In this document: positions 265 to 49,949 of the stretch, in pieces
Layout of the letters: each line of letters begins with the position of its first letter
Numbering within the stretch: the stretch's first letter is position 1
NCBI GenBank assembly: GCA_003696075.1
Contig: RFHH01000119.1
Coordinates: 10,873 to 74,872 of the forward strand
Source: Acidobacteriota bacterium
GTDB taxonomy: Bacteria; Acidobacteriota; Polarisedimenticolia; J045
Direction: 5' to 3'
Length of the DNA stretch: 64,000 nucleotides
Position numbers and translations under genes: made by a program
Notes under the pieces: model-generated
The model's database searches: none
The model's input: only the letters and a program-made list of their open reading frames with translations
What the model was told of the DNA's origin: nothing

Positions 265-2709
265 TCAGCGCGGTGGCGGTGCGTCGTCGCTGACGACCCG
301 CACCTCGCCCGACACATCGACCCGGCCCGGCTCTTCGGGTCCGGCCGGCGGCCGCTCGAACAGGTCGTCCCCGAGAGCGACCCGGATCACGTCGTCCAGC
401 TCCTGGGCGAAGTCGAACTGCATCGTCGCCCGCAGCTCGGGCTGGATGTCCTCGAGGTCCTTCTCGTTGTTCGCCGGCAGGATGACGCGCGTCACGCCGG
501 CGCGGCGGGCCGCCAGGACCTTCTCCTTGATCCCGCCCACAGGGAGCACCTTCCCGCGGAGGGTGAGCTCCCCCGTCATCCCGACCATCGGCCGCACCGG
601 ACGGCCGATCAGCAGCGACAGGAGGCTCACCGCGATCGTCACGCCGGCCGAGGGCCCGTCCTTCGGGATGGCGCCCGCGGGGACGTGCACGTGGATGTCG
701 TTCTTCTCGAACTTCTCGGGCGGGATCCCGAACGCGGCGGCGTTGGAGCGGATCCAGGACAGCGCAGCCTGGGCCGACTCCTTCATCACCTCGCCGAGCC
801 GCCCCGTGATGAGGAGTTTGCCGCGGCCCGGCATCAGGCTCGATTCGATGAACAGAATGTCGCCCCCAGACTGGGTCCACGCGAGACCGATGGCGACGCC
901 GGGGCGGTTGGCGCGCTCCGCCAACTCCCGGTGGAATTTCTGCGGACCGAGGTAGTCGGGCACGTCCGCCGCCCGAATCACGATCGGGCCGGACCGGTGC
1001 TCCTCCTCCTGCTCGACGAGCCGCCGGGCCACCTTGCGGCACAGGCTGGCGATCTCGCGCTCGAGATTCCGCAACCCCGCCTCCCGGGTGTACTCGGCGA
1101 TGATCCGCTGGATCGCACCGTCCTCGATCTCGATGTCGACTCCCTCGAGACCGTTTTCCTCCAGCTGCCGCGGGATCAGATGCCGGCGCGCGATTTCCAG
1201 CTTCTCCTCTTCGGTGTACCCGGGAAGGGACAGAACCTCCATCCGGTCACGCAACGCGTGCGGGATGGTGTCGAGCACGTTCGCCGTGCAGATGAAGAAG
1301 ACCTGACTCAGATCGAACGGGACCTCGAGGTAGTGGTCGGAGAAGGAGAAATTCTGCTCCGGGTCGAGCACCTCCAGCAGGGCGCTCGAGGGATCGCCGC
1401 GGAAATCGGCGCCGAGCTTGTCCACCTCGTCGAGGACGAACACGGGGTTCTTCGACCCCGCCCGTTTCAGTCCCTGAATGATCCGTCCCGGGAGGGCTCC
1501 GACGTACGTCCGGCGATGGCCTCTGATCTCCGCCTCGTCCCGGACGCCTCCCAGCGAGATCCGGACGAACTTGCGGCCCATCGCACGCGCGATGGAGCGG
1601 CCGAGCGAGGTCTTCCCGGTCCCCGGCGGGCCCACGAAGCACAGGATCGGTCCCTTGAGATCCGGCTTGCGCTTCCGGACGGCCAGGTACTCGAGGATCC
1701 TGTCCTTCACCTTCTCCAGGTCGTAGTGATCCTGGTCCAGGATCTCGCGGGCGGCTTTCAGCTCGATCTTGTCCTCGGTGGTGGTGCTCCACGGCAGGCT
1801 CGTCATCCAATCGAGGTAGGTCCGCGCCACCGTGTACTCCGCCGACGCCGGCGGCATCGCGCTCAGCCGGTCGAGCTCCCGCTCCGCGACCTCCCGGGCC
1901 TCGTCGGGCATCCCGGCCGCCTCGATCTTCTTCCGGAACTCTTCGATCTCCCGCGTCCGATCGTCGCCGTCCCCGAGCTCCCGCTGGATCGCCTTCATCT
2001 GCTCGCGCAGGTAGAAGTGCCGCTGGGTCTTCCCGACCTCGTCCATGACGCGCGACTGGATCTGCGACCCGAGCTCGGTGACCTGGATCTCCCGGTTCAC
2101 GCGGTAGGTGATCTTCTCCAGCCGCTCCTTGAGGGATGCGATCGGGAGAAGCTCCATCTTGTCCTTCACCGGGATGGGCAGGACCGAGGCCACGAGATCC
2201 GCCAGCCGGTCGGGATCGTCCTCCGGAAGGGTCAGCTCGGAAATATCCCCGGACAGGTTCGGGTGAATCTCCACCAGCTTGCGGAACTGGATGGCGAGGT
2301 TCCGGGCGAGCGCTTCGACCTCGATTCCCTCGTCGCGAATCGTCTCCAGGCGCTCGAAGCGTCCGGCCAGGTGCGGCTCTTCCTGCTCGAGCTCGATCAG
2401 GCGGACGCGCTGCAGACCCTGAATGATGAGGTTGATGTTTCCGCCGCCGACGCGGATCGCTTTGAGCACTCGCGCCAGGGTGCCGTGATCGTACAGATCC
2501 TCGATCCGCGGGTCGTCGGTTCCCGGGTCCTTCTGGCTCAGGACGACGATCTGGAGATCCTTCTCCAGCGCGTTCTCGATCAGCGCGAGCGTCTTGCGCC
2601 GCCCGACGCTGATCGGCATCACGGCGTGGGGGAACAACACACTGTTTCGGAGCGGCAGAATGCCGAACCGCTCGCCGTCCGCGCCCTTCGAACGCTTCGC
2701 CTCGCTCAT
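265..2709 (-). CDS. lon: ATP-dependent Lon protease (LonA type)
   Basis: 814 aa ORF. N-terminal LON substrate-binding domain, AAA+ Walker A GPPGTGKTS, and a C-terminal S16 proteolytic domain with the PKDGPSAG motif. Confidence 0.9.
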   Translation of the reverse strand: MSEAKRSKGADGERFGILPLRNSVLFPHAVMPISVGRRKTLALIENALEKDLQIVVLSQKDPGTDDPRIEDLYDHGTLARVLKAIRVGGGNINLIIQGLQRVRLIELEQEEPHLAGRFERLETIRDEGIEVEALARNLAIQFRKLVEIHPNLSGDISELTLPEDDPDRLADLVASVLPIPVKDKMELLPIASLKERLEKITYRVNREIQVTELGSQIQSRVMDEVGKTQRHFYLREQMKAIQRELGDGDDRTREIEEFRKKIEAAGMPDEAREVAERELDRLSAMPPASAEYTVARTYLDWMTSLPWSTTTEDKIELKAAREILDQDHYDLEKVKDRILEYLAVRKRKPDLKGPILCFVGPPGTGKTSLGRSIARAMGRKFVRISLGGVRDEAEIRGHRRTYVGALPGRIIQGLKRAGSKNPVFVLDEVDKLGADFRGDPSSALLEVLDPEQNFSFSDHYLEVPFDLSQVFFICTANVLDTIPHALRDRMEVLSLPGYTEEEKLEIARRHLIPRQLEENGLEGVDIEIEDGAIQRIIAEYTREAGLRNLEREIASLCRKVARRLVEQEEEHRSGPIVIRAADVPDYLGPQKFHRELAERANRPGVAIGLAWTQSGGDILFIESSLMPGRGKLLITGRLGEVMKESAQAALSWIRSNAAAFGIPPEKFEKNDIHVHVPAGAIPKDGPSAGVTIAVSLLSLLIGRPVRPMVGMTGELTLRGKVLPVGGIKEKVLAARRAGVTRVILPANNEKDLEDIQPELRATMQFDFAQELDDVIRVALGDDLFERPPAGPEEPGRVDVSGEVRVVSDDAPPPR

Positions 2710-2805
2710 CGTGACCTCACACCGCGTGCGACGCGCGGGAGCCGCGGCCCTGGTTCGAGTGTGCCACGGCGCCCCCGCTCCTGCCAGACGATCCGGAAGG
2801 GCCCG

Positions 2806-35387: not shown

Positions 35388-38009
<2,622 letters not shown>

Positions 38010-38048
38010 CGTTCACCTCTCCGAGTCATCGGCCTATCGGCACCGGCC

Positions 38049-38999
38049 TCAAGATCGCTCGAGCCGGGCGAGCTTCTCGTACAGTTCGCGCTGCTCTCGC
38101 GTCGGGTGCTTCGGCACCACGAGGCGGACTCGCGCAAGCAGATCGCCGCGCCCGCCGTCCTTCCGGGGAAGACCGCGGCCGCGCACGCGCAACGTCGTCC
38201 CCGTCGAAGTCCCGGGCGCGACACGGACTCTCACCGGGCGCTCGGGGGTCGGCACCTCCACGTGGCCGCCGACCACCGCGAGGGGTGCCGGGACGTCGAC
38301 CTCGGTCACGAGGTCGTCACCTTCGATGCGGAACGCCGGATCCGGGCGCAGCCGGATCTTCAGGTACAGATCTCCGCGGGGCGAGCCGGGCTGTCCCCCG
38401 CCGCCCATCCCGGGCAGGCGCAGCTTCTGTCCCGGCCGCAGTCCCGGAGGCAGGTTCACCGTCACGGTCTTCCGCTCCACCTTCCCGCCGGCTCCGGGAA
38501 CGCCCACCGTGATCCTGCGCGGACCCGGATGGAGCAGGTCGGACAGTCCGAACTCCACCTCCGCTTCGACGTCCCGGCCGCGCGGCCGGTGCGTGCGGGT
38601 GCGGCCGAAACCGCCCAGCCCCAGGTCACCGAAGAGGGTCTCGAAGAAATCGGAAAAGCCGCTTCCCCCGGCGCCGCCTCCGGCGGACCCGAAGATGTCG
38701 CCGAGATCCCCCATGCCGCCGACGTGGACGCGGAATCCCTCGAAGCCGGGAGGCGGCTCGAACGGAGCGCCGTGCTTCCAATTGGCGCCGAGCCGGTCGT
38801 AGCGGGCCCGCTTCTCGGGATCGCTGAGAACCTCGTAGGCCTCGTTGAGGTCCCGGAACTGCTCCTCCGCCCGGGGGGACTTGTTGACGTCCGGGTGGAG
38901 TTCGCGCGCCTTCCGGCGATAGGCGCGCTTGATCTCCTCGGTCGACGCCTTCCGGTCGACGCCCAGGATGGCGTAGTAGTCCTTGTAGGTCACGCTCAC
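38049..38999 (-). CDS. DnaJ-class co-chaperone (CbpA-like; J domain + C-terminal substrate-binding domains, no Zn finger)
   Basis: KDYYAILGV…HPD J-domain, a Gly-rich linker, and DnaJ_C beta domains. The start is approximate (GTG near VSVTYKDYY). Confidence 0.8.
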
Positions 39000-39630
39000 G
39001 ACGACGCCTCTCGATCGGTGGAGACCCGCCCGGGGCGGGCCGAGCGACCGCCGCGCCCCTTGTGGCATCGCGGGGCCCCCGGGTCAAGCGGCGCCGGCGC
39101 CCGGACGTTTCCGGGCAGCCGGCGCGAGTGCCCGAGAAATCGATGCGCCCGCAGGCGGCGCGGCCTCTTTCCGTTGGACGCGGGCGGCCTCCCGAAGCAG
39201 CGGCGGAGGGGGCTTTCGGCCGGCGGTCGGCTCGTCCGGCCCCCCGGCGGCCGGGCGTTCGTTCCGAGGTGCACCCGCGATGGTGCGTTTTCCTCTGCAA
39301 GTCGTTGTGGCTTGGGAGGTTCCGGCCGAACTCGCCGCTCGAGGAGTCAGGGCGCGCGGAAGCCACGGGTTTTCGCGGGACTGGGCGCCGGCGCGCACCG
39401 TCGCGGAAGCACCTTCCGCTCGCTGCGGCCCACCGGCGGGACGGGACGGAAGCGGAGGGCGGCGCCTCCGCCTTCGGCCCGCGGAGGGGGCGGTCGTCCC
39501 GCCCGCGCAGGATCCGGCCGGCCGATCCGCTGGGATCACCCCGGGAGACCGCCTTCCCGCTGGCGACCGCAACGAAGGCCGCCTTGCGCCGGCGGCCGTG
39601 CAGGATCACGCTTCGACGCCGGAGGAACCG

Positions 39631-40246: not shown

Positions 40247-41515
40247 ATGAGCCGCAGCAAGGTCGCCGTCCTCCAGACCCGCCCCCGCACCGTCTTCGCC
40301 GACTACCACCGCCTGATGAACCTCGCGGGGTACCAGGACGTCATCGACCGCTCAGCCGACACGGCACTCAAGATCAACATCTCGTGGCACTTCTTCTATC
40401 CGGCCAGCTCCACCACGCCCTGGCAGCTCGAGGGCGTGATCCGCGCGATGAAGGCCGACGGGTACGATCCGGCGTTGATCCACGGATGCCACAACCGGAC
40501 GGTCGTGATCGACGCCCACCTCGGGGAGCGCGAGAACAAGCACCTCGCGGTGCTCCAGGCGCACGGCCTGAGGAACATCCATCTCTACGAGGGCGAGGAG
40601 TGGATCCACATCAGAGATGCGGTCGGGGAGCTCGCCGACCGGTTCCTGTGCCTGAACGACGTCTATCCCCGAGGCTTCCACATCCCGAAGCGGTTCATCG
40701 GCGAGAACATCATCCACCTGCCGACGGTCAAGACCCACGTGTTCACCACGACCACCGGGGCGATGAAGAACGCCTTCGGAGGGCTGCTGAACGAGCACCG
40801 ACACTGGACGCACCCGGTGATCCACGAAACGCTCGTCGACCTTCTCATGATCCAGAAGAAGATCCACCGGGGGGTCTTCGCGGTGATGGACGGTACGTTC
40901 GCCGGGGACGGACCCGGGCCGCGGTGCATGGTGCCGCACGTGAAGAACGTGATCCTGGCATCCGCCGACCAGGTCGCGATCGACGCGGTGGCGGCGCGGA
41001 TGATGGGGTTCGACCCCCTCTCGATCAAGTACATCCGTCTCGCGCACGATCTGGGACTCGGATGCGGCGATCCGCGGGAGATCGAGATCGCCGGCGACGA
41101 GAGGGCCGCGGCACAGAACTGGCGCTTCGACGGACCGTACAAGCGAATGACCTTCGCTTCCCGCATGCAGCACAAGATCTACTGGGGCCCGCTGAAGAAA
41201 CCGGTCGAGTGGTCGCTGAAGACGGTGCTCGCGCCGTGGGCGTACGTTGCGAGCGTTCTGTACCACGACAGCTTCTGGTATCCGCTGAAGGCGAAGCGGA
41301 TGATGCGGGCGGCGCTCGACAGCGAGTGGGGGCGGCTGTTCCGGAACTGGGAAAAGCTGAGCCCCGACGAACTCGGCTTTCCCGAGGTCGGTGACGAACC
41401 GGCGGAGCTGGAGAAGACGGGGCTGCGCGCTCTTCGCCAATCGCTCGGGATCCTCGCCACCTGTCTCCGGGAGGCCCCGGAGTTCGCCGCGCGACGGCGA
41501 GCCCGCGGGCGCTGA
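40247..41515 (+). CDS. DUF362 domain-containing protein
   Basis: MSRSKVAVLQTRP… The conserved DUF362 core is present throughout. The family call is from memory. Confidence 0.7.
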   Translation: MSRSKVAVLQTRPRTVFADYHRLMNLAGYQDVIDRSADTALKINISWHFFYPASSTTPWQLEGVIRAMKADGYDPALIHGCHNRTVVIDAHLGERENKHLAVLQAHGLRNIHLYEGEEWIHIRDAVGELADRFLCLNDVYPRGFHIPKRFIGENIIHLPTVKTHVFTTTTGAMKNAFGGLLNEHRHWTHPVIHETLVDLLMIQKKIHRGVFAVMDGTFAGDGPGPRCMVPHVKNVILASADQVAIDAVAARMMGFDPLSIKYIRLAHDLGLGCGDPREIEIAGDERAAAQNWRFDGPYKRMTFASRMQHKIYWGPLKKPVEWSLKTVLAPWAYVASVLYHDSFWYPLKAKRMMRAALDSEWGRLFRNWEKLSPDELGFPEVGDEPAELEKTGLRALRQSLGILATCLREAPEFAARRRARGR

Positions 41516-41678
41516 CGAGCGCCGCGCTCCGGCAATTCCCTCCGCGGCGGTGGGGATCCCTCTTTCCCCGCAGCCGGCACCGCGTTCGCACCGCCGCGGG
41601 GACACCCGGGGCCGGTTTGCAGCTTCGCGCGTCTTCGCGGTACCCTCCGGCGGCTCCCGAGCCGTCCGGAAGGCGCCG

Positions 41679-44600
41679 ATGACCCTCAAACTGCCCACCC
41701 TTCCGCGCCAGCTCTTGCCGGCCGCCCTGGCGTCGCTCATCGTCGTGCCGCCCGCTGCAGGCGGGCCGCCGGCGGCGCTCGTCAGGGACCTCCGGTCGCC
41801 AGAAACCGCGGGATCGGGCGTTTCCTCCTTCCCCCACGATCTCGTCCGCTTCGGCTCGATCGTTCTGTTCGCCGCCGAGGACCCGGCGCACGGTAGCGAG
41901 CTGTGGCGGACCGACGGCACGCCCGGCGGGACGGAGTTGGTTCTGGACATCCAGGCGGGAGCGGGAAGCGGCTCCCCGACGAACCTCACGGTCGCCGGCG
42001 GCGCCGTCTACTTCACCGCGGACGACGGAGTTCACGGTCGCGAACTGTGGGTCAGCGACGGCACCGCCGCGGGAACGCGGATGGTGGCCGACATCGCGCC
42101 GGGACTCGCGGGTTCGCGGCCCGAAGCGCTCTTCTCCGACGGCACGCGCCTCTTCTTCGCGGCCGACGACGGGCTCCACGGCCAGGAGCTGTTCGTGACC
42201 GACGGAACGGCGGGCGGGACCGTACTGCTGGCCGACATCGCGGCCGGTACGGAGACGTCCTTTCCGCGGCCGCTCGGAGCCGCCGGCGGTCTCCTCTACT
42301 TCGCCGCCACCGAGAGGTCCGCTGCCGGCGTTTCTCCCGCCGGCACGGGACGCGAACTGTGGGTGACCGACGGGACGCCGGAGGGCACGCGGCTCGTCAA
42401 GGACATCGATCCAGGGGAGGCCTCTTCCTCGCCGGCCGGTTTCGCCCTGGCGGGCGGGCTCGTCCTGTTCAGCGCGGACGACGGCACCCACGGCCGGGAG
42501 CCCTGGGTCACGGACGGGACCGAGGCGGGCACGCACCTCCTTCTCGACGTCAATCCGCCGCAGGAAGGCGACGAGGCGCGCGGTTCCGATCCGCGGGAGT
42601 TTTTCCCCTTCGCCGGGATCGTGCTCTTCTCGGCCTTCCGCGACGAAGACGGCCGCGAGCTGTGGCGAACCGACGGCACCGCCGCCGGGACCTTCCCGGT
42701 GGCCGACATCGCTCCCGGAACGGATTCCTCGTCGCCGTTCGGCTTCACCGCCGCGGGCGGGTTCGTCTACTTCTCCGCCGCGGACCCGAACCACGGGCGC
42801 GAGCTGTGGCGAACCGACGGCACGCCGGGGGGAACGGCGCTCGTCGCCGACGTCGGCCGCGGGGCGGGTGCCGCTCCGGGGGCTGCCGACCCGCTCGACG
42901 GCGATCCGGGACAGCTCACCCCGCTCGGCGATGGGATCCTCTTCGCCGCCACCGACGAGGCGCACGGGCGGGAGCCCTGGTTCGCCGACGGCGCCGGCGC
43001 CGTCCTCCTCGCCGACGTCCGGCCGGGCGCGGCCGGGAGCGATCCCGTCGTGCTCGCCGCGGCCGGGAGTGCCGTCTATTTCGCCGCCGGGGAAGGTGGG
43101 GATGGCCGGACGCTGTGGCGCTCCGACGGCACGCCCGCAGGCACGGGCCCGGTCCCGACCCCCTTTCCGCCGCCCCTCGGGCCCGATACCGCGGTGGCCC
43201 TCGGCGAGCTGTTGATCTTCGTCGCCGACGACGGTGTCTCCGGGCGGGAGCCATGGGTGTTCGATCCGGCGGCCCCTCAGTCCGAGCGGTTGGCCGACAT
43301 CGCCGGAGAGGACGGTTCCCTCCCGATCCCTCTTCTGTTCACCGAGGTGGTGCGCACGGGCGAGACCGAGCCGGTCGAGCAGCTGTTCTTCTCCGCCGAC
43401 GACGGGCTCCACGGCCGCGAGCTATGGGCCACCTTCGGCACCCCGTCCGGGACGTCGCTGTTCGCGGACATCGATCCCGGCGCGCCGCCCTCGACGCCCG
43501 CGGACCTCACCCTGTTCACCGCCGACGGGGGGGACCGGATCGTGCTCCGGGCTCACTCGGAGGCGCTGGGCGAGGAACCGTACGCCGTGGTCCTCGCGAC
43601 CCAGGTTCTCGTCCCGCTGGGCGATCTCCGGCCGATCAGCGGCCTCGGCTCGAAACCGCGCGAGTTCACCCCCTCGGGCGGCTCGATCTTCTTCAGCGCG
43701 GACGACGGCATCCACGGCCGGGAACTGTGGCGGAGCGACGGGACGGCGGACGGAACCGCGCTGGTGGCCGACATCGGGCGTGACGGCACCGGGAGCGATC
43801 CCGATCCCCATGGCTCCGATCCGGCGGACCTGACGAGCGCCGCCGGACTCCTGTTCTTCGCTGCAGAGGATCCGGGCGCTGGCCGCGAGCTCTGGATCAC
43901 CGACGGCACGGAGGCGGGAACGCGGAGGGTGAAGGACATCGAACCGGGTCCCGGCTCCTCCTCGCCGCACGACCTCACCGCGCTGGGGAATCTCGTCCTG
44001 TTCGCCGCGAGCACGACGGACGCGGGCGAGGAGCTCTGGGCGAGCGACGGGACGGAGGCCGGAACGGCGCGACTGGCGGACATCGCTCCCGGCGCGGCGG
44101 GCTCCTCCCCGAGGATCCTGCTGACGGCAGGGAATCACGCCTATTTCAGCGCCGACGACGGGACGCACGGGCGCGAGCTCTATGTCACCGACGGAACGAG
44201 CACCGGAACCGTCTTCCTCGGCGATCTCGAGCCCGGCACCGGCGGCTCCGACCCGGCGGGGCTGTTCGACCTCTCCCGCGACGGCACCGAGCGCGTCCTC
44301 TTCACCGCCTGGACGTCCGCGGAGGGTCGCGAGCTGTGGGCGACCGACGGGACCCCGGCCGGTACGTCGCTCCTCGCCGACATCGCAGCGGGGCCGGCCT
44401 CCTCCGATCCGGCCGGGATGACGCTCCTGGACGCCTCGGCGCTGTTCAGCGCGGACGACGGCCTGCACGGCCGCGAGCCGTGGGTCACCGACGGGACCGC
44501 CGCGGGAACCTCCCTCGTCGCGGACATCTCCCCCGGGGCGGCGTCGTCCATGGCCGCCGGGGCGGCGTCCTTCGCCGCCGCGGGCGGGCGAGCCTTCTTC

Positions 44601-45116
44601 GCCGCGGACGACGGGGTGAGCGGGGCCGAGCCGTGGTCGACCGACGGGACGAATGCCGGAACGGAGCTGGTGCAGGACATCGCACCCGGCCCGGCCGGAT
44701 CGGCGCCGGCTCGTTTCCTGGCGGGCCGGACGCGCGTCTTCTTCTCGGCGGACGACGGCACGCACGGCCGGGAACTGTGGGCGATCGACCTGTGTTCCTA
44801 CCCGTCGTCGGGGGATTGCGACGGCGACGGCGTGCCGAACCAGGCGGACAACTGCCCGAGGACCCCGAACGCGGACCAGCTGGATTTCGACGCCGATGGG
44901 GCCGGCGACGCCTGCGAGTCGGGCGCCTCCGCAGCGGACGCCGACCGATCGGGTCGCGTCGACGGGTACGACCTCGCCGCCCTCGGGAGGGCGTTCGGCG
45001 CCGCCGCGGGAGATCCCCGTTACGATCCGACGGTCGATCTCGACCGGAACGGATTCGTGGACGGAGAGGATCTCGCCCTTTTCGCCCCCGAGTTCGGCGC
45101 GGAGGTGGAGCCATGA
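41679..45116 (+). CDS. ELWxxDGT-repeat surface protein with C-terminal thrombospondin type-3 repeats and type-I dockerin
   Basis: GGAAGG Shine-Dalgarno sequence. Signal-like N-terminus. About 19 tandem ~50-55 aa repeats (G[RQ]ELW[RV]TDGT..GT.LV.DI.PG…S.P). The C-terminus has DCDGDGVPNQADNCPRTPNADQLDFDADGAGDAC, then DADRSGRVDGYDLAAL… and DLDRNGFVDGEDLALF (two Ca-binding dockerin segments). Confidence 0.85.
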   Translation: MTLKLPTLPRQLLPAALASLIVVPPAAGGPPAALVRDLRSPETAGSGVSSFPHDLVRFGSIVLFAAEDPAHGSELWRTDGTPGGTELVLDIQAGAGSGSPTNLTVAGGAVYFTADDGVHGRELWVSDGTAAGTRMVADIAPGLAGSRPEALFSDGTRLFFAADDGLHGQELFVTDGTAGGTVLLADIAAGTETSFPRPLGAAGGLLYFAATERSAAGVSPAGTGRELWVTDGTPEGTRLVKDIDPGEASSSPAGFALAGGLVLFSADDGTHGREPWVTDGTEAGTHLLLDVNPPQEGDEARGSDPREFFPFAGIVLFSAFRDEDGRELWRTDGTAAGTFPVADIAPGTDSSSPFGFTAAGGFVYFSAADPNHGRELWRTDGTPGGTALVADVGRGAGAAPGAADPLDGDPGQLTPLGDGILFAATDEAHGREPWFADGAGAVLLADVRPGAAGSDPVVLAAAGSAVYFAAGEGGDGRTLWRSDGTPAGTGPVPTPFPPPLGPDTAVALGELLIFVADDGVSGREPWVFDPAAPQSERLADIAGEDGSLPIPLLFTEVVRTGETEPVEQLFFSADDGLHGRELWATFGTPSGTSLFADIDPGAPPSTPADLTLFTADGGDRIVLRAHSEALGEEPYAVVLATQVLVPLGDLRPISGLGSKPREFTPSGGSIFFSADDGIHGRELWRSDGTADGTALVADIGRDGTGSDPDPHGSDPADLTSAAGLLFFAAEDPGAGRELWITDGTEAGTRRVKDIEPGPGSSSPHDLTALGNLVLFAASTTDAGEELWASDGTEAGTARLADIAPGAAGSSPRILLTAGNHAYFSADDGTHGRELYVTDGTSTGTVFLGDLEPGTGGSDPAGLFDLSRDGTERVLFTAWTSAEGRELWATDGTPAGTSLLADIAAGPASSDPAGMTLLDASALFSADDGLHGREPWVTDGTAAGTSLVADISPGAASSMAAGAASFAAAGGRAFFAADDGVSGAEPWSTDGTNAGTELVQDIAPGPAGSAPARFLAGRTRVFFSADDGTHGRELWAIDLCSYPSSGDCDGDGVPNQADNCPRTPNADQLDFDADGAGDACESGASAADADRSGRVDGYDLAALGRAFGAAAGDPRYDPTVDLDRNGFVDGEDLALFAPEFGAEVEP
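41880..44790 (+). repeat. Intragenic tandem coding repeats (~150-165 bp units, ELWxxDGT)
   Basis: Recurrent cacggccgcgagctgtgg…gacggcac blocks at roughly 150-165 bp periodicity inside CDS 41679..45116. Confidence 0.8.
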
Positions 45117-45754
45117 CAACGCGGAACGGCGGCGAGTTCGCCCGGGTGCGGCTCGCCCGCCCGCTGCTGGCGGCGGTGGCGGCCGTCATGGTGGGGACCG
45201 GTCTCCTCGCGACGGGGTGCCACGAAGCCCCGCCGGATATCCTCTTCGAATCCCCGCTCACCACCTTCTTCACGGAAAGCTCCACTCCGGATGCCCCGGA
45301 TCTCGTCCGGCTGCGCGGGGAGGTCATCGACAACCAGACCGTTCTGGTTGAAGTCGTCGTCACCGGTCCGACCACCAGCTCCGACATCTACTCGTTCGCT
45401 TTCGACCTGCTGTTCAGCGGCGATCTCACCCCGCAGTACGTGTCCGGATCGGCCGAGGCGGGTGATTTCCTCACGGCCGGACCGGGCCAGGACGTCGTCG
45501 CCCAGGTGAGTCAATCGGGGGCGCGCCTGACCGTCGGGGTGACGAAGACGGGCGGTGGTCCGGGCAACGGCCTGGGGGCGGGACAGGCCACGGTGGTGAG
45601 CTTCCGCGTCACCCTCCCGGAAGCGGGCCGGGCGGCGATCCGCTTCGCGGCCGATCCCCAGGGACGCGCTCCCGCCGCCCTCGATCCCTCGGGAAATCCG
45701 GTGCCGTCGATCGTGTTCGACGGCGAACCGGCGGTCATCGCGCGGCAGGCGTGA
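45113..45754 (+). CDS. Cohesin-like domain lipoprotein
   Basis: ATG overlaps the upstream stop (ATGA). Lipobox LLATGC. IYSFAFDLLFSGDL…AEAGDFL and LTVGVT… resemble the cohesin beta-sandwich core. Confidence 0.55.
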   Translation: MTTRNGGEFARVRLARPLLAAVAAVMVGTGLLATGCHEAPPDILFESPLTTFFTESSTPDAPDLVRLRGEVIDNQTVLVEVVVTGPTTSSDIYSFAFDLLFSGDLTPQYVSGSAEAGDFLTAGPGQDVVAQVSQSGARLTVGVTKTGGGPGNGLGAGQATVVSFRVTLPEAGRAAIRFAADPQGRAPAALDPSGNPVPSIVFDGEPAVIARQA

Positions 45755-46635
45755 GGGCTCACGGGACGCCGCGCGGGTTCGGACCGGCCGCCGGGGCGGT
45801 GCTCGCGATCGTCCTGGTCTCGGTGGGATGCGCGACCACGGGGCCTCCCGGCGTTCCTCCCGGCGCTCGCCCGCTCTCCCCCCCGCCCCGCGAGCCGGCC
45901 GGCGAGGGCGGCTCACGCGTGGGCGGCCCGCCGGGGGAGGTGCCGCGTCCCGCGGGACGCGGTTCGGAGGCGCCCGCGCCGCCGGAGGCCGGGGAACCCG
46001 CCCGGACGAACGAGGGATCCGGAAAAGACTCCGCCCCCGGCGGACCCGGCCGAGCCGGCTTCGTCGCGGCCGTCCCCCCGGACTCCCCCGCGGAGGTTCC
46101 CGCGGCGGGCGAAGCGGCGGAGCCGCTCGCCCCGAGCCGCGAGCCACCGGAGCGGGAGCCGCCGGAACACGCTCGCGAGCCAGCGGCGCCGCAGGAGTCC
46201 CCGGGCCCGGAACCGGGTGCGGAGACGGCGATCCTCGTCGTCCCCGAGCCCGCGGAGGTTGCCCCCGGGGAAATCGTCACGCTGAGCGTGCGCCTCGCCG
46301 CGGCGGTCGAGGTGTCGAGCGTCCCCCTTCTCGTGCGGTTCGATCCCCGGATCGTGTCGTTTCTCGACGCGGCCGAGGGAGATTTCCTCCGCCGGGACGG
46401 CGCCCCCACCGCGTTTCTGGCGTCGCTCGACTCGTCCGGCCGCGCGGTGGTGGTGGGAAACTCGCGACTCGGCCGCCGGCCGGGGCTGTCGGGAGACGGA
46501 GAGGTCTGCCGGCTCCGTTTCCGCGCGCTGGCCTCCGGTGATCCGGCGTTCTCCGTCCCCCGGGCGAACGTGAGGGCCGCGGGCGGCGCCGTCGTGGCGG
46601 CCGAGCTCACCGTCCTGCCCGCACGGGTGCGCTGA
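45751..46635 (+). CDS. Cohesin-like domain lipoprotein (second copy, Pro/Glu-rich linker)
   Basis: GTG overlaps the upstream stop (GTGA). Signal and lipobox (LVSVGC). A long PE-rich low-complexity linker. The C-terminal domain GEIVTLSVRLAAAVEVSSVPLLVRFDPRIVSFLDAAEGDFL matches the cohesin pattern (…YDP..LE.V….GDFL). Confidence 0.6.
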   Translation: MRAHGTPRGFGPAAGAVLAIVLVSVGCATTGPPGVPPGARPLSPPPREPAGEGGSRVGGPPGEVPRPAGRGSEAPAPPEAGEPARTNEGSGKDSAPGGPGRAGFVAAVPPDSPAEVPAAGEAAEPLAPSREPPEREPPEHAREPAAPQESPGPEPGAETAILVVPEPAEVAPGEIVTLSVRLAAAVEVSSVPLLVRFDPRIVSFLDAAEGDFLRRDGAPTAFLASLDSSGRAVVVGNSRLGRRPGLSGDGEVCRLRFRALASGDPAFSVPRANVRAAGGAVVAAELTVLPARVR

Positions 46636-46687
46636 CCGCGGTATGATGCTTCCGGTCGCCCGGTGCTCCGGGCGAGGGGAGGTCTCC

Positions 46688-47440
46688 ATGATCGCCGTCG
46701 GCAGCGAAGCGCCAGCCTTCACCCTTCAGGACCAGTTCGGGCGCACCATCGATTCGAAGAAGATCCTGGAAACGCGGCACCTCATGCTCTTGTTCTACCC
46801 GCTCGACTTCACCCCCACGTGAAGCCGGGAGGTGCCGGCGGTCCAAGCGCGGCTCGCGCGCTTCGAGGCCGCCCACACCCAGGTTCTGGGTGTCAGCGTC
46901 GACAGCATCTACTGCCACGCCAACTGGGCACGGAGTCTCGGAGGCATTTCGTTCCCCCTGCTGGCCGATTTCCACCCGAAAGGCGACGTGGCGCGCCGTT
47001 TCGGGCTCTACCTCGAGGACAAGGGGATCACGGACCGGGCGACCGTGATCGTCTCGCGCGACGGCATCGTGCGGTTCGCGGAATCGGTGACGCCCGCGGG
47101 CGAACGCGACATCGACGCGCTCGTGGCCGAATGCGAGCGGATCGACCGCGAGCACCCGGGCGGGGAACCCCCGGCACGCCGCCGACTCCCCGACGGTTCG
47201 GTGCTCTTCGTGAAGACCGGCTGCCCCTTCTGCCGTTGGGTGCTCGCTGCGCGGGAGAACCTCGGGCTCACCGAGTCGCTGCCCGTGCGGAACGTCTCGG
47301 AGGACCCGCAGGCGCGCGCCGAGCTGGAGCGCATCGCCGGCCGGACCCAGGTGCCGTGCCTCGTGAGGGAGGGCGAGCCGATGCACGAGTCGGCCGAGAT
47401 CGCTCGCTTCCTCGCCGAACTCGCCGCACCCGTCCACTGA
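46688..47440 (+). CDS. Selenocysteine-containing peroxiredoxin (BCP/PrxQ-like) fused to glutaredoxin; in-frame TGA at 46820-46822
   Basis: GGGGAGG Shine-Dalgarno sequence, ATG 46688. The translation MIAVGSEAPAFTLQDQFGRTIDSKKILETRHLMLLFYPLDFTPT-[TGA]-SREVPAVQARL… aligns to the Prx motif FYPxDFTPxC, with TGA at the peroxidatic Cys. The downstream ORF is in the same frame and continues the Prx fold. The C-terminus carries a Grx domain with CPFC. Confidence 0.7.
46837..46873 (+). promoter_or_regulatory. Putative SECIS-like stem-loop 15 nt downstream of the in-frame UGA
   Basis: GGCGG-UCC-AAGCGCG-GCUCG-CGCGCUU-CGAGG-CCGCC forms a bipartite hairpin (5 bp + 7 bp stems, 5-nt apical loop). A smaller alternative hairpin, GCCGG-GAGGUG-CCGGC, lies at 46824-46839. 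Confidence 0.4.
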
Positions 47441-47510: not shown

Positions 47511-49949
47511 TCAGGAGAACTGGCGCAGCGTCTCGGCCATCTGCGACAGCCGCCGCGAGACCCGATCGCCCAGGCTTCCGGCCGGCCACGTGCCGTTCTC
47601 GTCCGGCGCACCGAACGGAATGCCGGCGAGCAGACCCATCAACTCCGCCACGCTGTCCACCGGGTGGATGCGGAATTTGCCCGCCGCGATGTCGTCGACC
47701 ACCTCGGGCGAAAGCTGGAGGTAGGCCACGCACGACGATGGGATGATCACGCCCGGCCGCCCCCGGAACCCCCGCTCGCGGCACGCCCGCCAGAAGCCCT
47801 CGATCTTCTCGTTGATACCGCCCACGGCGAGCACGTTCCCGTGCTGGTCCACCGCACCTGTGACCGCGAGGTCCTGCCGCAGCGGTTGATTCGAGAGGGC
47901 GGAGAGCAGCGCGGCGAGTTCGGCCGACGACGCCGAGTCTCCCTCCACGCCGCCATAGGACTGCTCGAAGCAGATGCTCGCGGTGACCGACAGCGGGAGG
48001 CGTCGCGCGAACTGGGAACGGAGATACCCCGCCAGGATCAGCGAAGCCTTGGTGTGGATCTCCCCCGACAGATCCGCTTCCCTTTCGACGTCGATCACCC
48101 CTTCGTCCCCAACGGCCACGGTGGCGGTGATGCGCACGGGGTAGCCCAGCCGTTCCAGTTTCGTCTGCACGACGGCGAGCGCGTTCACCTGGCCCACCGC
48201 CGTGCCCTCGAGATCCAGCTTGAGCACCCCTTCCCGGATCGCGTCCTGAATGCGTCCCGACAGGAGGCCCTGCCGCTCGCGCCGGGCTCGCAGCGCCCGC
48301 TCGACATCCTGCATCTCCACCCGGCCGACCCCCCGCTCCCGCGCGAACCAGGTGGCCTCCCGCGCCAGGTCCAACATCTCGCGGAAGCGCGTCGACAACC
48401 GGTGGCGGCTGTCGGCCAGCCTGACCATGTACTCCATGATCCGTGCGACACCGTCCCGGGAGATCGGCAGGAGGTCCTCCTCCTTCACGACGCGCGCGAG
48501 GAAGCACGCGTAGGAGTAGACCATCTCGGCGGTCAGCGGGACCCGGTCGTCGAACAGCGCGGTCACCTTGAACAGCTTGGAGAACTCCTCGTCGCCGCTA
48601 TGGAGCAGATCGTGAGTGCCGACCGTTCCGACGAGGACCACGGTGACATCGATCGGGATCGGCTCGGGAAGGAGCACCGGCGGCCCCTCGGAGGCGTTGC
48701 CGCTGACCGGGGTGACGCTGTTGGTGAGCATGGACCTCCGGAGCGCCGGCCACGCCCCCTCTTCCGACAGCAGCTCCCTCGCGTTCAGGACGAGATAGCC
48801 GCCGTCGGCGCGGTGCAGGGCCCCGGGACGGATGCTCGACAGGCCCGCCTGCAGGCCCCCTTCCGGCGTCCGCCGAGCTTCGACCACACCGCACAGGCGG
48901 GGCGCGGTGGGATCCACCTCCTCCACCAGGGGCCGTCCGTCCTCCTCGGCCCGGTCGACCAGAAGGTTCACGCGGAGCACGTCGAGCGGGCTGAATGGCG
49001 TGCCCTCGCCCGGTTGCGTGCGGACCGCCTCCCCCTGGGCGTAGAGAACCGGGAAGATCTCCAGAAGGTAGTTCTCGACGTCGGCGAGGAAGCGGTCCAG
49101 ACCCGGCCGCTCTCCCTCCTCCAGTCCCACCGCCTCTCGGATTCCGCCGACGATCTCCTTGATCGCCGGAACGGCCGCCTGCCGGTCGAACTCCGCCACC
49201 GCGCGTTCGAGCTCGCGGCCCAGCGCCTGGAGCTTCGCCGTTTCGCGCGAAAGGCGCGCGGCGAGCTCCGGATGCCTCCGGCGCAAGCGCTCCGCCTCCT
49301 CGGCGGGGATGACGCCCTCGTGGACCTTGCCGTCCAGCTCTCCCATGGAGACGGGTTCCCCCCCGACGACCGGGGCGAGCTCGTGCCGCCGGAAGTTGCC
49401 CAGATTCACCTCGACGAGGGCGAAGCCCTCCTTTTCGACCTCCGTCTGGAAGTCCTTGATGATCCGGCTCTGCTGCTGCTGGAACCGGCGGGCGATCATC
49501 TGCCGCCGCTTCCTGTGCGTCTGGGAGCCTCGAAGGGCGAGAAGGCCGTGCTGGAAGCGCTCGATCGCGGCGTCGAGCGCCGCTCTCAATCTCCGGCCCG
49601 CCCCGGCGGGGAGCCGGAGCGCGCGCGGCGATCTCGGATCGGCGAAGTTGTGCACGTAGCACAGGTCGTCCGGGACGGGCCCCTTCTTCCGCACCTCCTG
49701 GAGGACGCGCCTGACCGTGGATGTCCGGCCGGTGCCCGGGAGCCCGGCTACGTAGACGTTGTAGCCGCGTGCCCTCAGACTGGCCGCCAATCGCACCGCG
49801 TCGACAGCCTTCGGCTGGTCGTAGGCGCTGGCGCAGTCGCCGAGCTCGGCCGTGGTCTCGAACGGCAGCCACTCCGCGGGACAGCGCCAGGCCACCTGGT
49901 CGGCCGTCAGGGAACGTTCGAGCGGTTCCGGTCCTCGGCTCACGGGCAA
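47511..49949 (-). CDS. LonC-like protease (AAA+-like domain with degenerate Walker A + S16 Lon proteolytic domain)
   Basis: 812 aa. GLPGTGRTS (Lys replaced by Arg in Walker A). The C-terminal Lon protease domain has a Ser-Lys dyad region (…EQSYGGVEGDSASSAELAALLSAL…). Confidence 0.8.
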   Translation of the reverse strand: MPVSRGPEPLERSLTADQVAWRCPAEWLPFETTAELGDCASAYDQPKAVDAVRLAASLRARGYNVYVAGLPGTGRTSTVRRVLQEVRKKGPVPDDLCYVHNFADPRSPRALRLPAGAGRRLRAALDAAIERFQHGLLALRGSQTHRKRRQMIARRFQQQQSRIIKDFQTEVEKEGFALVEVNLGNFRRHELAPVVGGEPVSMGELDGKVHEGVIPAEEAERLRRRHPELAARLSRETAKLQALGRELERAVAEFDRQAAVPAIKEIVGGIREAVGLEEGERPGLDRFLADVENYLLEIFPVLYAQGEAVRTQPGEGTPFSPLDVLRVNLLVDRAEEDGRPLVEEVDPTAPRLCGVVEARRTPEGGLQAGLSSIRPGALHRADGGYLVLNARELLSEEGAWPALRRSMLTNSVTPVSGNASEGPPVLLPEPIPIDVTVVLVGTVGTHDLLHSGDEEFSKLFKVTALFDDRVPLTAEMVYSYACFLARVVKEEDLLPISRDGVARIMEYMVRLADSRHRLSTRFREMLDLAREATWFARERGVGRVEMQDVERALRARRERQGLLSGRIQDAIREGVLKLDLEGTAVGQVNALAVVQTKLERLGYPVRITATVAVGDEGVIDVEREADLSGEIHTKASLILAGYLRSQFARRLPLSVTASICFEQSYGGVEGDSASSAELAALLSALSNQPLRQDLAVTGAVDQHGNVLAVGGINEKIEGFWRACRERGFRGRPGVIIPSSCVAYLQLSPEVVDDIAAGKFRIHPVDSVAELMGLLAGIPFGAPDENGTWPAGSLGDRVSRRLSQMAETLRQFS

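What the first reader, a model, noticed from the sequence alone, without database searches (positions are those of the whole stretch)
46823..46875. Candidate bacterial SECIS hairpin immediately downstream of the UGA
15 nt after the UGA, the mRNA can fold as GGCGG-UCC-AAGCGCG-[GCUCG]-CGCGCUU-CGAGG-CCGCC. This is a two-tier stem of about 12 bp with an internal loop and a 5-nt apical loop. A smaller alternative hairpin is GCCGG-GAGGUG-CCGGC at +2..+17. Position and size are in the range of SelB-binding SECIS elements, which begin about 11 nt after the UGA.
Basis: seen in the sequence. Interest (0 to 1): 0.55.

Follow-up and report, generated by a model that had tools for sequence, protein, structure and literature searches.

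The report
Selenocysteine insertion hairpin in a peroxiredoxin gene
The hairpin is real and is most likely the RNA signal that makes the ribosome read an in-frame UGA as selenocysteine in a mis-annotated peroxiredoxin-glutaredoxin fusion gene; this is a sound but ordinary example of a known mechanism.

Summary
A 37-nt hairpin at 46837-46873 starts 15 nt after the in-frame UGA (46820-46822). It has 15 bp, two 1-nt bulges, the loop GCUCG and an energy of -25.3 kcal/mol, which puts it in the top 0.2% of 37-nt windows in this 71% GC sequence.

The UGA sits at the catalytic cysteine position (Cys45 of M. tuberculosis AhpE) of a 250-aa peroxiredoxin fused to a glutaredoxin-like domain. GenBank annotates only a truncated 202-aa protein. 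All 80 related genes fetched from several phyla carry TGA at this codon, and both sides are conserved in frame.

In 81 such genes, the 60 nt after the UGA fold more stably than versions with permuted synonymous codons, and this is the strongest such signal in the gene. Most Cys-containing relatives lack it. Low-GC relatives keep a hairpin with its loop at the same columns.

Two caveats apply. The pairing register shifts between orthologues, so fixed-column covariation is not significant and RNAalifold finds no consensus. Also, the published bacterial SECIS criteria, which this hairpin meets, discriminate poorly in GC-rich DNA.

The smaller hairpin at +2..+17 is rejected. The Sec machinery (selA/B/C/D) is not in the window and could not be checked.

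Verdict: a probable functional bacterial SECIS, and a new member of a known kind.

The parts
46688..47440 (+). Complete coding sequence of a 250-aa selenoprotein. It has an AhpE-type peroxiredoxin domain (aa 4-130) with Sec at codon 45, and a C-terminal glutaredoxin/GST_N-like domain (aa 172-245, CPFC motif). GenBank annotates only the part from GTG 46832 (202 aa, D6718_07620).
   Evidence: Translation. Pfam AhpC-TSA 1.1e-31, Glutaredoxin 5.6e-10, GST_N_2 3.3e-13. The best solved structure is M. tuberculosis AhpE 1xxu, E 5.9e-26, with U45 aligned to Cys45. P0001 is 100% identical over 81% of the query.
46674..46682 (+). Shine-Dalgarno-like GAGGGGAGG, ending 5 nt before the ATG at 46688.
   Evidence: Read from the sequence. 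The N-terminus MIAVG... is conserved in the orthologues, whose tblastn matches start at residue 1.
46820..46822 (+). In-frame UGA read as selenocysteine (codon 45), at the peroxidatic Cys position in the motif FYPLDFTPT-U-SRE (PxxxTxxU).
   Evidence: TGA is at the homologous codon in all 80 genome loci and in 4 further relatives. Full-length homologues have Cys there.
46837..46873 (+). Candidate SECIS hairpin. The lower stem is 46837-46844 paired with 46865-46873, with bulges at C46864 and A46866. The upper stem is 46845-46851 paired with 46857-46863. It encodes residues P50-A62.
   Evidence: -25.3 kcal/mol, z -2.9. Pair probabilities are 0.96-1.0. Synonymous-permutation z is -2.7/-3.1. It lies in the top 0.2% of 37-nt windows in the window.
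46852..46856 (+). Apical loop GCUCG, 29 nt after the UGA. This is the presumed SelB contact region.
   Evidence: Low-GC relatives L086 and L087 have the loops GGUUG and GAUUG at the same alignment columns 33-37.
46824..46839 (+).
   Evidence: -9.2 kcal/mol alone, ensemble probability about 0, and fully paired in only 1 of 79 orthologues. Its loop starts 6 nt after the UGA, outside the model's 16-37 nt range.
47438..47440 (+). The gene's real stop codon, which is also UGA. The same codon therefore has two meanings within one mRNA, so a local signal is needed to tell them apart.

Best explanation
The hairpin at 46837-46873 is the bacterial selenocysteine insertion sequence (SECIS) of a selenoprotein gene at 46688-47440. 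The gene encodes an AhpE-type peroxiredoxin whose peroxidatic cysteine is replaced by selenocysteine, fused to a glutaredoxin-like domain.

Inferred mechanism, following the established E. coli and Moorella model: the specialised elongation factor SelB, carrying GTP and Sec-tRNA(Sec), binds the apical part of the hairpin (upper stem 46845-51/46857-63 and loop GCUCG) through its C-terminal winged-helix domains. When the ribosome places UGA 46820-22 in the A site, the hairpin sits at the mRNA entrance. The tethered SelB then delivers Sec-tRNA in competition with release factor 2. The ribosome afterwards unwinds the hairpin and translates it as P50-A62. The terminal UGA at 47438 lacks this context and is read as stop.

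Shown here:
- The UGA lies at a catalytic Cys position and is conserved as TGA in every orthologue examined.
- Both sides of the UGA are conserved in one frame.
- The hairpin is unusually stable.
- The excess stability lies at synonymous sites, is localised just after the UGA, and is mostly absent from Cys homologues.

Inferred, not shown: SelB binding, the presence of Sec machinery in this organism, and which nucleotides are recognised.
For: (1) Sec codon.
- The product matches AhpC/TSA (1.1e-31) plus Grx/GST_N domains across the UGA.
- U45 aligns with the peroxidatic Cys45 of M. tuberculosis AhpE. The motif P-x3-T-x2-U matches the known Prx selenoprotein motif (PMC13188914).
- All 80 best genome loci have TGA at this codon. 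They come from Acidobacteriota, Myxococcota (including cultured Enhygromyxa salina), Planctomycetota, Gemmatimonadota and others. Their tblastn matches run from residue 1 to about 249.
- Full-length database homologues have Cys there.

(2) Hairpin.
- -25.3 kcal/mol, z -2.9, in the top 0.2% of the window.
- It meets all four published bSECIS constraints.

(3) Selection on structure.
- Over 81 genes, the windows 0 and 5 codons after the UGA have the lowest mean energy in the gene. The values are -23.6 and -26.6 kcal/mol, against -20.0 and -21.2 after synonymous permutation.
- Mean z there is -1.04 and -1.58, and 31% and 44% of genes have z < -1.64. Elsewhere in the gene the mean z is about -0.24. 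A paired Wilcoxon test against each gene's own background gives p about 1e-8.

(4) Cys controls.
- Six Cys homologues give mean z of +0.08 and +0.04. Four of them show no excess structure.
- A Mann-Whitney test against 85 Sec genes gives p about 0.01.

(5) Low-GC relatives.
- L086 (38% GC) and L087 (46% GC) have a 9-10 bp hairpin with loops GGUUG and GAUUG at exactly the window's loop columns, with z from -2.9 to -4.1.
- Three upper-stem pairs are changed on both sides relative to the window: G-C to U-A, C-G to A-U and G-C to U-A.

(6) The register i+j=70 is the one enriched register. Its mean longest helix is 6.1 bp, against 4.9 in shuffles and about 3 in other registers.

(7) There is no terminator-like T-run.
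Against: - RNAalifold finds no consensus structure over the 79 distinct orthologue sequences.
- For the window's exact structure, and for a fixed register-70 helix, 63-65% of cells pair. That exceeds slid controls (40-51%) but not column shuffles, and the covariation score is not elevated. Classical covariation support is therefore lacking.
- Orthologues fall into at least two fold classes, with loops at about 20 nt or at 25-30 nt after the UGA, and into several registers.
- Much of the pairing potential is already fixed by the conserved residues (E-A ... R-F). Synonymous shuffles still fold to about -21 kcal/mol.
- The qualitative bSECIS criteria are not discriminating in this GC-rich context. 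In a lenient test 51% of real sequences and 49% of synonymous shuffles pass. In a strict ungapped test 43% of real sequences pass, against 16% of shuffles.
- The loop starts with GC, not the commoner GG or GU.
- No Rfam family matches.
- No selA, selB, selD or tRNA-Sec is present in the 64-kb window or near 60 orthologous loci.
- The Sec genes are phylogenetically related, so the p-values overstate independence.
Confidence: 0.82

Rival explanations
1. The UGA does encode selenocysteine, but this particular hairpin is largely a by-product of GC-rich codons for conserved residues (VEAL..RF.AA). On this view the element SelB actually recognises is something else: only a short part of the hairpin, an alternative fold, or a different register, as in the 'class B' orthologues whose small hairpin has a GGA loop 20 nt after the UGA.
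For: - Synonymous shuffles of the region still fold to about -21 kcal/mol, and register 70 is favoured even in shuffles (4.9 bp).
- There is no fixed-column covariation and no RNAalifold consensus.
- About 23 orthologues prefer a different, smaller hairpin, CAGCGCU-GGA-AGCGCUG.
- L092 uses yet another register.
- The lenient bSECIS criteria are passed equally by shuffles.
Against: - The real sequences are significantly more stable than synonymous permutations, specifically just after the UGA.
- In the window the excess is 10-11 kcal/mol (z about -3), and no competing fold has measurable probability.
- Most Cys homologues lack the excess.
- Low-GC relatives keep the same loop columns with compensatory changes.
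Confidence: 0.1
2. The hairpin promotes SelB-independent read-through or pausing at the UGA, for example near-cognate insertion of Cys or Trp, rather than selenocysteine insertion.
For: No Sec machinery could be shown for this organism. Stable downstream structures can stimulate read-through in other systems; this last point is general knowledge and was not tested here.
Against: - The UGA lies exactly at a redox-active catalytic Cys, the hallmark Sec/Cys pairing. Prx (TxxU) is an established and abundant bacterial selenoprotein family (PMC2398784; PMC5029168; PMC13188914).
- TGA is kept in 84 of 85 relatives across phyla rather than drifting to TGC/TGT or TGG, which argues that UGA itself is selected.
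Confidence: 0.04
3. The UGA is a true stop, so the gene is a pseudogene, two separate ORFs or an assembly error, and the hairpin is a chance GC-rich structure.
For: GenBank annotates only the downstream 202-aa ORF. About 25 equally stable hairpins occur per strand in the window.
Against: - TGA lies at the same codon in 80 of 80 independent genomes, with conservation in frame on both sides.
- The downstream ORF alone lacks the catalytic residue and the first 48 residues of the Prx fold.
- The 44-codon upstream part has a good SD and ATG.
Confidence: 0.02
4. The functional SECIS is the smaller hairpin at +2..+17 (46824-46839).
For: It forms in isolation at -9.2 kcal/mol.
Against: - Its ensemble probability is about 0 when the main hairpin can form.
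- All 5 pairs form in only 1 of 79 orthologues.
- Its loop begins 6 nt after the UGA, outside the model's 16-37 nt range. It would lie inside the ribosome's mRNA channel when the UGA is in the A site (general knowledge).
Confidence: 0.01

Closest known systems
Bacterial SECIS elements as described by the bSECISearch consensus model (Zhang & Gladyshev 2005, as summarised in PMC13188914); archetype E. coli fdhF/fdnG
   Same: - A stem-loop inside the coding sequence, just 3' of an in-frame UGA.
- A 5-nt apical loop beginning with G.
- A 7-bp upper stem.
- 29 nt between the UGA and the loop, within the 16-37 nt range.
- An energy far below -7.5 kcal/mol.
- The hairpin is itself translated.
   Different: - The loop is GCUCG rather than the commoner G[G/U] pattern.
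- No bulged U like that of fdhF is evident.
- The hairpin is long (15 bp) and very GC-rich.
- Among orthologues the register slides, and more than half lack a G at the start of the minimum-free-energy loop.
- Binding to SelB is untested.
Peroxiredoxin (Prx, PF00578, TxxU) selenoprotein family of bacteria (Eubacterium acidaminophilum PrxU; the GOS 'Prx' family)
   Same: - An AhpC/TSA fold with Sec at the peroxidatic position in a PxxxTxxU motif.
- Abundant Cys homologues.
- Marine low-GC stand-alone relatives with TGA (L086, L087, L092) probably belong to the GOS Prx group.
   Different: - It scores only 75.8 bits against the NCBIfam PrxU equivalog, whose cut-off is 270.
- The Prx domain is closest to the AhpE subfamily.
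- It carries a C-terminal Grx-like domain. I did not find this fusion mentioned in the papers I read, which report a Prx-PP2C fusion.
Mycobacterium tuberculosis AhpE (Rv2238c), a 1-Cys peroxiredoxin reduced by the glutaredoxin-like mycoredoxin-1
   Same: - It is the best solved-structure match (E 5.9e-26 over residues 1-141).
- The catalytic residue is at position 45 in both.
- The closest Cys homologues in the databases are labelled 'mycoredoxin-dependent peroxiredoxin'.
- A Grx-type partner is fused here, or encoded directly downstream in L089 and L092.
   Different: Sec replaces Cys45, and the reductant domain is covalently fused. The window has CPFC, whereas most orthologues have a monothiol CGFS-type motif.

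Membership tests
Bacterial SECIS (bSECIS consensus model) | A stem-loop within the ORF immediately downstream of an in-frame UGA | tested here: met
   The hairpin at 46837-46873 starts 15 nt after UGA 46820-22, inside ORF 46688-47440.
Bacterial SECIS (bSECIS consensus model) | An apical loop of 3-9 nt and an upper stem of 4-16 bp | tested here: met
   The loop GCUCG has 5 nt. The uninterrupted upper stem has 7 bp, and the whole hairpin has 15 bp.
Bacterial SECIS (bSECIS consensus model) | At least one G in the first two loop positions (mostly G followed by G or U) | tested here: met
   The first loop base is G46852, so the minimum rule is met. The next base is C, so the commoner G[G/U] pattern is not present. 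[quoted passage not shown]
Bacterial SECIS (bSECIS consensus model) | 16-37 nt between the UGA and the apical loop | tested here: met
   29 nt in the window. In the orthologues, 80 of 81 lie between 18 and 30 nt.
Bacterial SECIS (bSECIS consensus model) | Minimum free energy <= -7.5 kcal/mol | tested here: met
   -25.3 kcal/mol for the whole hairpin and -10.6 for the upper stem-loop alone. In this GC-rich context the combined criteria are weakly specific.
Bacterial SECIS (bSECIS consensus model) | Structure conserved in orthologous selenoprotein genes | tested here: inconclusive
   Nearly all of the 85 Sec genes have a hairpin, with excess stability over synonymous permutations. However, there is no RNAalifold consensus and no fixed-column covariation above shuffles.
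Bacterial SECIS (bSECIS consensus model) | Bound by SelB; the organism has selA, selB, selC (tRNA-Sec) and selD | not testable with these tools
   None of these genes is in the window, and there is no tRNA-Sec near 60 orthologous loci.
Rfam SECIS families | A covariance-model match at or near the gathering score | tested here: not met
   No SECIS family hit appears in the window at gathering thresholds, or at E <= 10 in 46600-47100. Only chance-level hits to unrelated families were found.
Prx (TxxU) selenoprotein family | An AhpC/TSA domain with Sec at the peroxidatic Cys in a PxxxTxxU motif, and Cys in homologues | tested here: met
   PF00578 1.1e-31. The motif P38-LDF-T42-PT-U45 is present. 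Cys homologues are aligned.
NCBIfam PrxU equivalog (NF040737) | A score above the curated cut-off of 270 bits | tested here: not met
   75.8 bits. It is therefore not a PrxU orthologue, and the Prx domain is AhpE-like.

The most novel reading that the evidence does not exclude
The AhpE-Grx selenoprotein family of Acidobacteriota, Myxococcota and Planctomycetota may use a SECIS type that departs from the canonical bacterial model. It would be a long GC-rich hairpin whose pairing register slides between lineages and whose apical loop often lacks the conserved G. That would imply a SelB recognition mode based more on shape and position than on loop sequence. The family itself, a Sec-AhpE fused to a mostly monothiol CGFS Grx-like domain and truncated in almost every database entry, would then be an undescribed and widespread selenoprotein subfamily.
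Probability: 0.2. Interest if true: 0.45.

Novelty: new member of a known kind. Interest (0 to 1): 0.3.

Why it matters
It corrects an annotation. A gene filed as a 202-aa hypothetical protein is really a 250-aa selenoenzyme whose catalytic residue is the 'stop' codon. The same truncation affects almost all of its database relatives: nearly all of the 120 best hits are truncated.

It also documents a Sec-containing AhpE-type peroxiredoxin fused to its likely glutaredoxin-type reductant, spread across several little-studied phyla.

It gives a concrete case in which bacterial SECIS structure is maintained by selection on stability while the pairing register drifts. That helps explain why covariation methods and the qualitative bSECIS rules perform poorly in GC-rich genomes. 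The mechanism itself is textbook.

Tried and rejected
- Rfam at gathering and permissive thresholds gave no SECIS hit.
- RNAalifold on 79 orthologues gave no consensus.
- Fixed-structure covariation counts for a register-70 helix and for the window's exact fold were not above column shuffles.
- A lenient suboptimal-structure version of the bSECIS rules did not discriminate real sequences from synonymous shuffles.
- One Cys homologue, P0003, had no retrievable DNA.
- The window was searched for Sec machinery and for other TGA-bridged ORFs. The three in-frame ORF pairs across TGA are ordinary adjacent genes. Pfam on 20 window ORFs found no SelA, SelB or SelD, and the 714-aa GTPase is EF-G-like.
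- There is no tRNA-Sec in the window or in 60 loci.
- Synteny of the window's neighbours with the 80 loci found none shared.
- A terminator or promoter reading of the hairpin found no sites.
- The small +2..+17 hairpin was rejected.

Full report
**The observation**

The in-frame UGA is at 46820-46822. RNAfold folds these 37 nt into one hairpin of 15 bp:
- a lower stem, 46837-46844 paired with 46865-46873, with single-base bulges at C46864 and A46866;
- an upper stem, 46845-46851 paired with 46857-46863;
- the loop GCUCG at 46852-46856.

The energy is -25.3 kcal/mol, and 72% of the ensemble takes this structure. The z-score against dinucleotide shuffles is -2.9. In a 61-nt context the z-score is only -1.64, because GC-rich shuffles also fold well.

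Over the whole 71% GC window, 37-nt windows average -11.1 +/- 4.1 kcal/mol. About 0.19% reach -25.3, which is roughly 25 sites per strand. The hairpin is therefore unusual but not unique. What counts is its position 15 nt after a specific codon.

It has zero ensemble probability next to the main hairpin, and all 5 of its pairs form in only 1 of 79 orthologues.

**The gene**

Reading from ATG 46688, which follows GAGGGGAGG, through the UGA to the terminal TGA at 47438-47440 gives a 250-aa protein. Its features are:
- an AhpC/TSA peroxiredoxin domain (1.1e-31) and a C-terminal glutaredoxin/GST_N-like domain with a CPFC motif;
- a best solved relative in M. tuberculosis AhpE (E 5.9e-26), with the UGA codon aligned to the peroxidatic Cys45;
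- the motif P-LDF-T-PT-U, which fits the PxxxTxxU signature of the known Prx selenoprotein family (PMC13188914).

The protein scores far below the cut-off of the curated PrxU equivalog: 75.8 bits against 270.

GenBank annotates only a 202-aa ORF from GTG 46832 (P0001, D6718_07620, 'Acidobacteria bacterium' MAG). The gene uses UGA both as codon 45 and as its stop, so a local signal must distinguish the two.

**Orthologues**

Nearly all of the 120 best database homologues are 200-205 aa long and cover about 80% of the query. They are truncated at the same point.

A scan of one genome per species found 318 relatives. The 80 best were fetched. They come from Acidobacteriota, Myxococcota (including cultured Enhygromyxa salina), Planctomycetota, Gemmatimonadota, Eiseniibacteriota, Binatota and others.

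Every one of the 80 has TGA at the homologous codon, inside FYPLD[FWY]TPT-U-[ST]xE, and their tblastn matches span residues 1 to about 249.

Database proteins that show W at this position proved to have TGA in the DNA (L084, L086, L087, L092).

True Cys forms exist. Some are fusions (L081-L083). Others are stand-alone AhpE-like proteins of about 152-155 aa, labelled 'mycoredoxin-dependent peroxiredoxin' by one source.

In L089 and L092 a separate Grx-like gene follows the stand-alone Prx directly. In L092 that gene carries a CGFS motif. The window's protein is therefore a fusion of a functional pair.

**Is the hairpin selected?**

I permuted synonymous codons within each gene, which preserves the protein and the codon usage, and folded 60-nt windows along 81 genes.
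- The windows beginning 0 and 5 codons after the UGA have the lowest mean energies in the gene: -23.6 and -26.6 kcal/mol, against -20.0 and -21.2 after permutation.
- They also have the most negative mean z, -1.04 and -1.58, and 31% and 44% of genes have z < -1.64.
- Other windows in the gene average about -0.24.
- In the window's own gene the values are -2.73 and -3.12, the extremes for that gene.
- A paired Wilcoxon test against each gene's own background gives p about 1e-8. Phylogenetic relatedness inflates this figure.

Six Cys homologues give mean z of +0.08 and +0.04. Four show no excess structure, and two (L081, L090) show a mild one. A Mann-Whitney test against 85 Sec genes gives p about 0.01.

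Low-GC stand-alone Sec relatives are the most telling:
- L086 (38% GC) folds as UUGAGUCGAU-GGUUG-AUCGAUUCAA.
- L087 (46% GC) folds similarly.
- Both have loops at exactly the window's loop columns 33-37, with z from -2.9 to -4.1.
- Relative to the window, three upper-stem pairs are changed on both sides in L086.

A register scan shows that i+j=70, counting from the U of UGA, is the one favoured register. Its mean longest helix is 6.1 bp, against 4.9 in shuffles and about 3 in other registers.

**What does not support it**

- RNAalifold finds no consensus over the 79 distinct sequences.
- For a fixed register-70 helix, and for the window's exact fold, 63-65% of cells pair. That is above slid controls (40-51%) but not above column shuffles, and the covariation score is not raised.
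- The folds fall into two classes. About 57 sequences, including the window, form a long hairpin with its loop 25-30 nt after the UGA. About 23 form a small hairpin, CAGCGCU-GGA-AGCGCUG, with its loop about 20 nt after.
- Further registers also occur.
- Part of the pairing comes from the conserved residues E-A...R-F.

The window's hairpin meets every constraint of the published bSECIS model: a 3-9 nt loop, a 4-16 bp upper stem, a G in the first two loop bases, 16-37 nt spacing, and an energy <= -7.5 kcal/mol (PMC13188914). These rules are weakly specific here.
- A strict ungapped version passes 43% of Sec genes, against 16% of synonymous shuffles and 11% of other positions in the same genes.
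- A lenient version passes 51% of real sequences against 49% of shuffles.

No Rfam family matches.

**Context**

The window contains no tRNA-Sec and no SelA, SelB or SelD. Sixty orthologous loci have no nearby tRNA-Sec. Whether the organism can decode Sec could therefore not be checked.

No terminator-like or promoter-like site overlaps the hairpin. The window's neighbouring genes are not shared with the orthologous loci.

**Conclusion**

The UGA is almost certainly a Sec codon. The 46837-46873 hairpin is, with about 0.8 confidence, its SECIS, acting in the standard SelB-tethering manner. That mechanism is inferred from the E. coli and Moorella paradigm and was not tested.

Prx is an established and abundant bacterial selenoprotein family (PMC2398784; PMC5029168). 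This is therefore a new member of a known kind.

Three modest points are new: the AhpE-type Sec-Prx fused to a Grx-like domain, its systematic mis-annotation, and a SECIS whose stability is conserved while its register drifts.

Noticed in passing
window 46832-47440 (+); database hits: GenBank annotates this gene as a 202-aa hypothetical protein (D6718_07620) starting at GTG 46832, just after the UGA. Nearly all of the 120 best database homologues are truncated in the same way (200-205 aa, about 80% coverage). Some pipelines instead print W at the Sec position because they translated TGA with another genetic code.
   Followed up: yes
L088:301-768 (Planctomycetota MAG JAWKUH010000009.1): A stand-alone relative has GGA (Gly) at the Sec/Cys codon, yet it keeps one of the strongest downstream hairpins (z -4.05 against synonymous permutations). 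It may be a recent TGA-to-GGA mutation, an inactivated gene, or an assembly or consensus error.
   Followed up: partly
L089:514-765 and L092:579-827: In stand-alone relatives, a separate 83-aa glutaredoxin-like gene directly follows or overlaps the Prx gene. L089 is the Cys form and L092 the low-GC Sec form. In L092 the Grx-like gene has a CGFS motif. The window's gene is a fusion of this pair.
   Followed up: partly
window 47219-47230 (codons 178-181, CPFC); alignment A1: The Grx-like domain has a dithiol CPFC motif in the window, but a monothiol CGFS-type motif (CGFS, CMFS, CEFS, CGHS) in most orthologues. Only the first Cys is nearly invariant. The resolving chemistry may therefore differ between lineages.
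   Followed up: no
window 46648-46683 (+): The 52-nt leader between the upstream gene's stop and the Prx start folds into a GC-rich hairpin, UCGCCCGG-UGCU-CCGGGCGA. An outer helix pairs CUUCC with part of the Shine-Dalgarno GGGGAG. The energy is -27.7 kcal/mol over 57 nt, but z is only -1.5. The weak Rfam hits here (Yfr1, CRISPR-DR9) are at chance level.
   Followed up: partly
window 41391-45116 (+): A 1241-aa protein is built of about 20 repeats of an 'ELW.(T/S)DGT..GT' unit and ends in thrombospondin-type-3-like Asp-rich and dockerin-like motifs. It is followed by a 294-aa ORF (45751-46635) with no Pfam hit. Neither is linked to the Prx gene in the other genomes.
   Followed up: partly
window 47511-49949 (-) and 265-2805 (-): The window holds two Lon-type proteases. 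A LonB/LonC-like AAA protease lies directly downstream of the Prx gene on the opposite strand, and a classical Lon lies at the window's start. ClpB (35388-38012) and DnaJ (38049-39083) are also present.
   Followed up: no
window, both strands: About 24-26 sites per strand have 37-nt hairpins at least as stable as the SECIS candidate (for example around 11941, 27011, 53445 and 61551). Stability alone is therefore not diagnostic in this genome.
   Followed up: no
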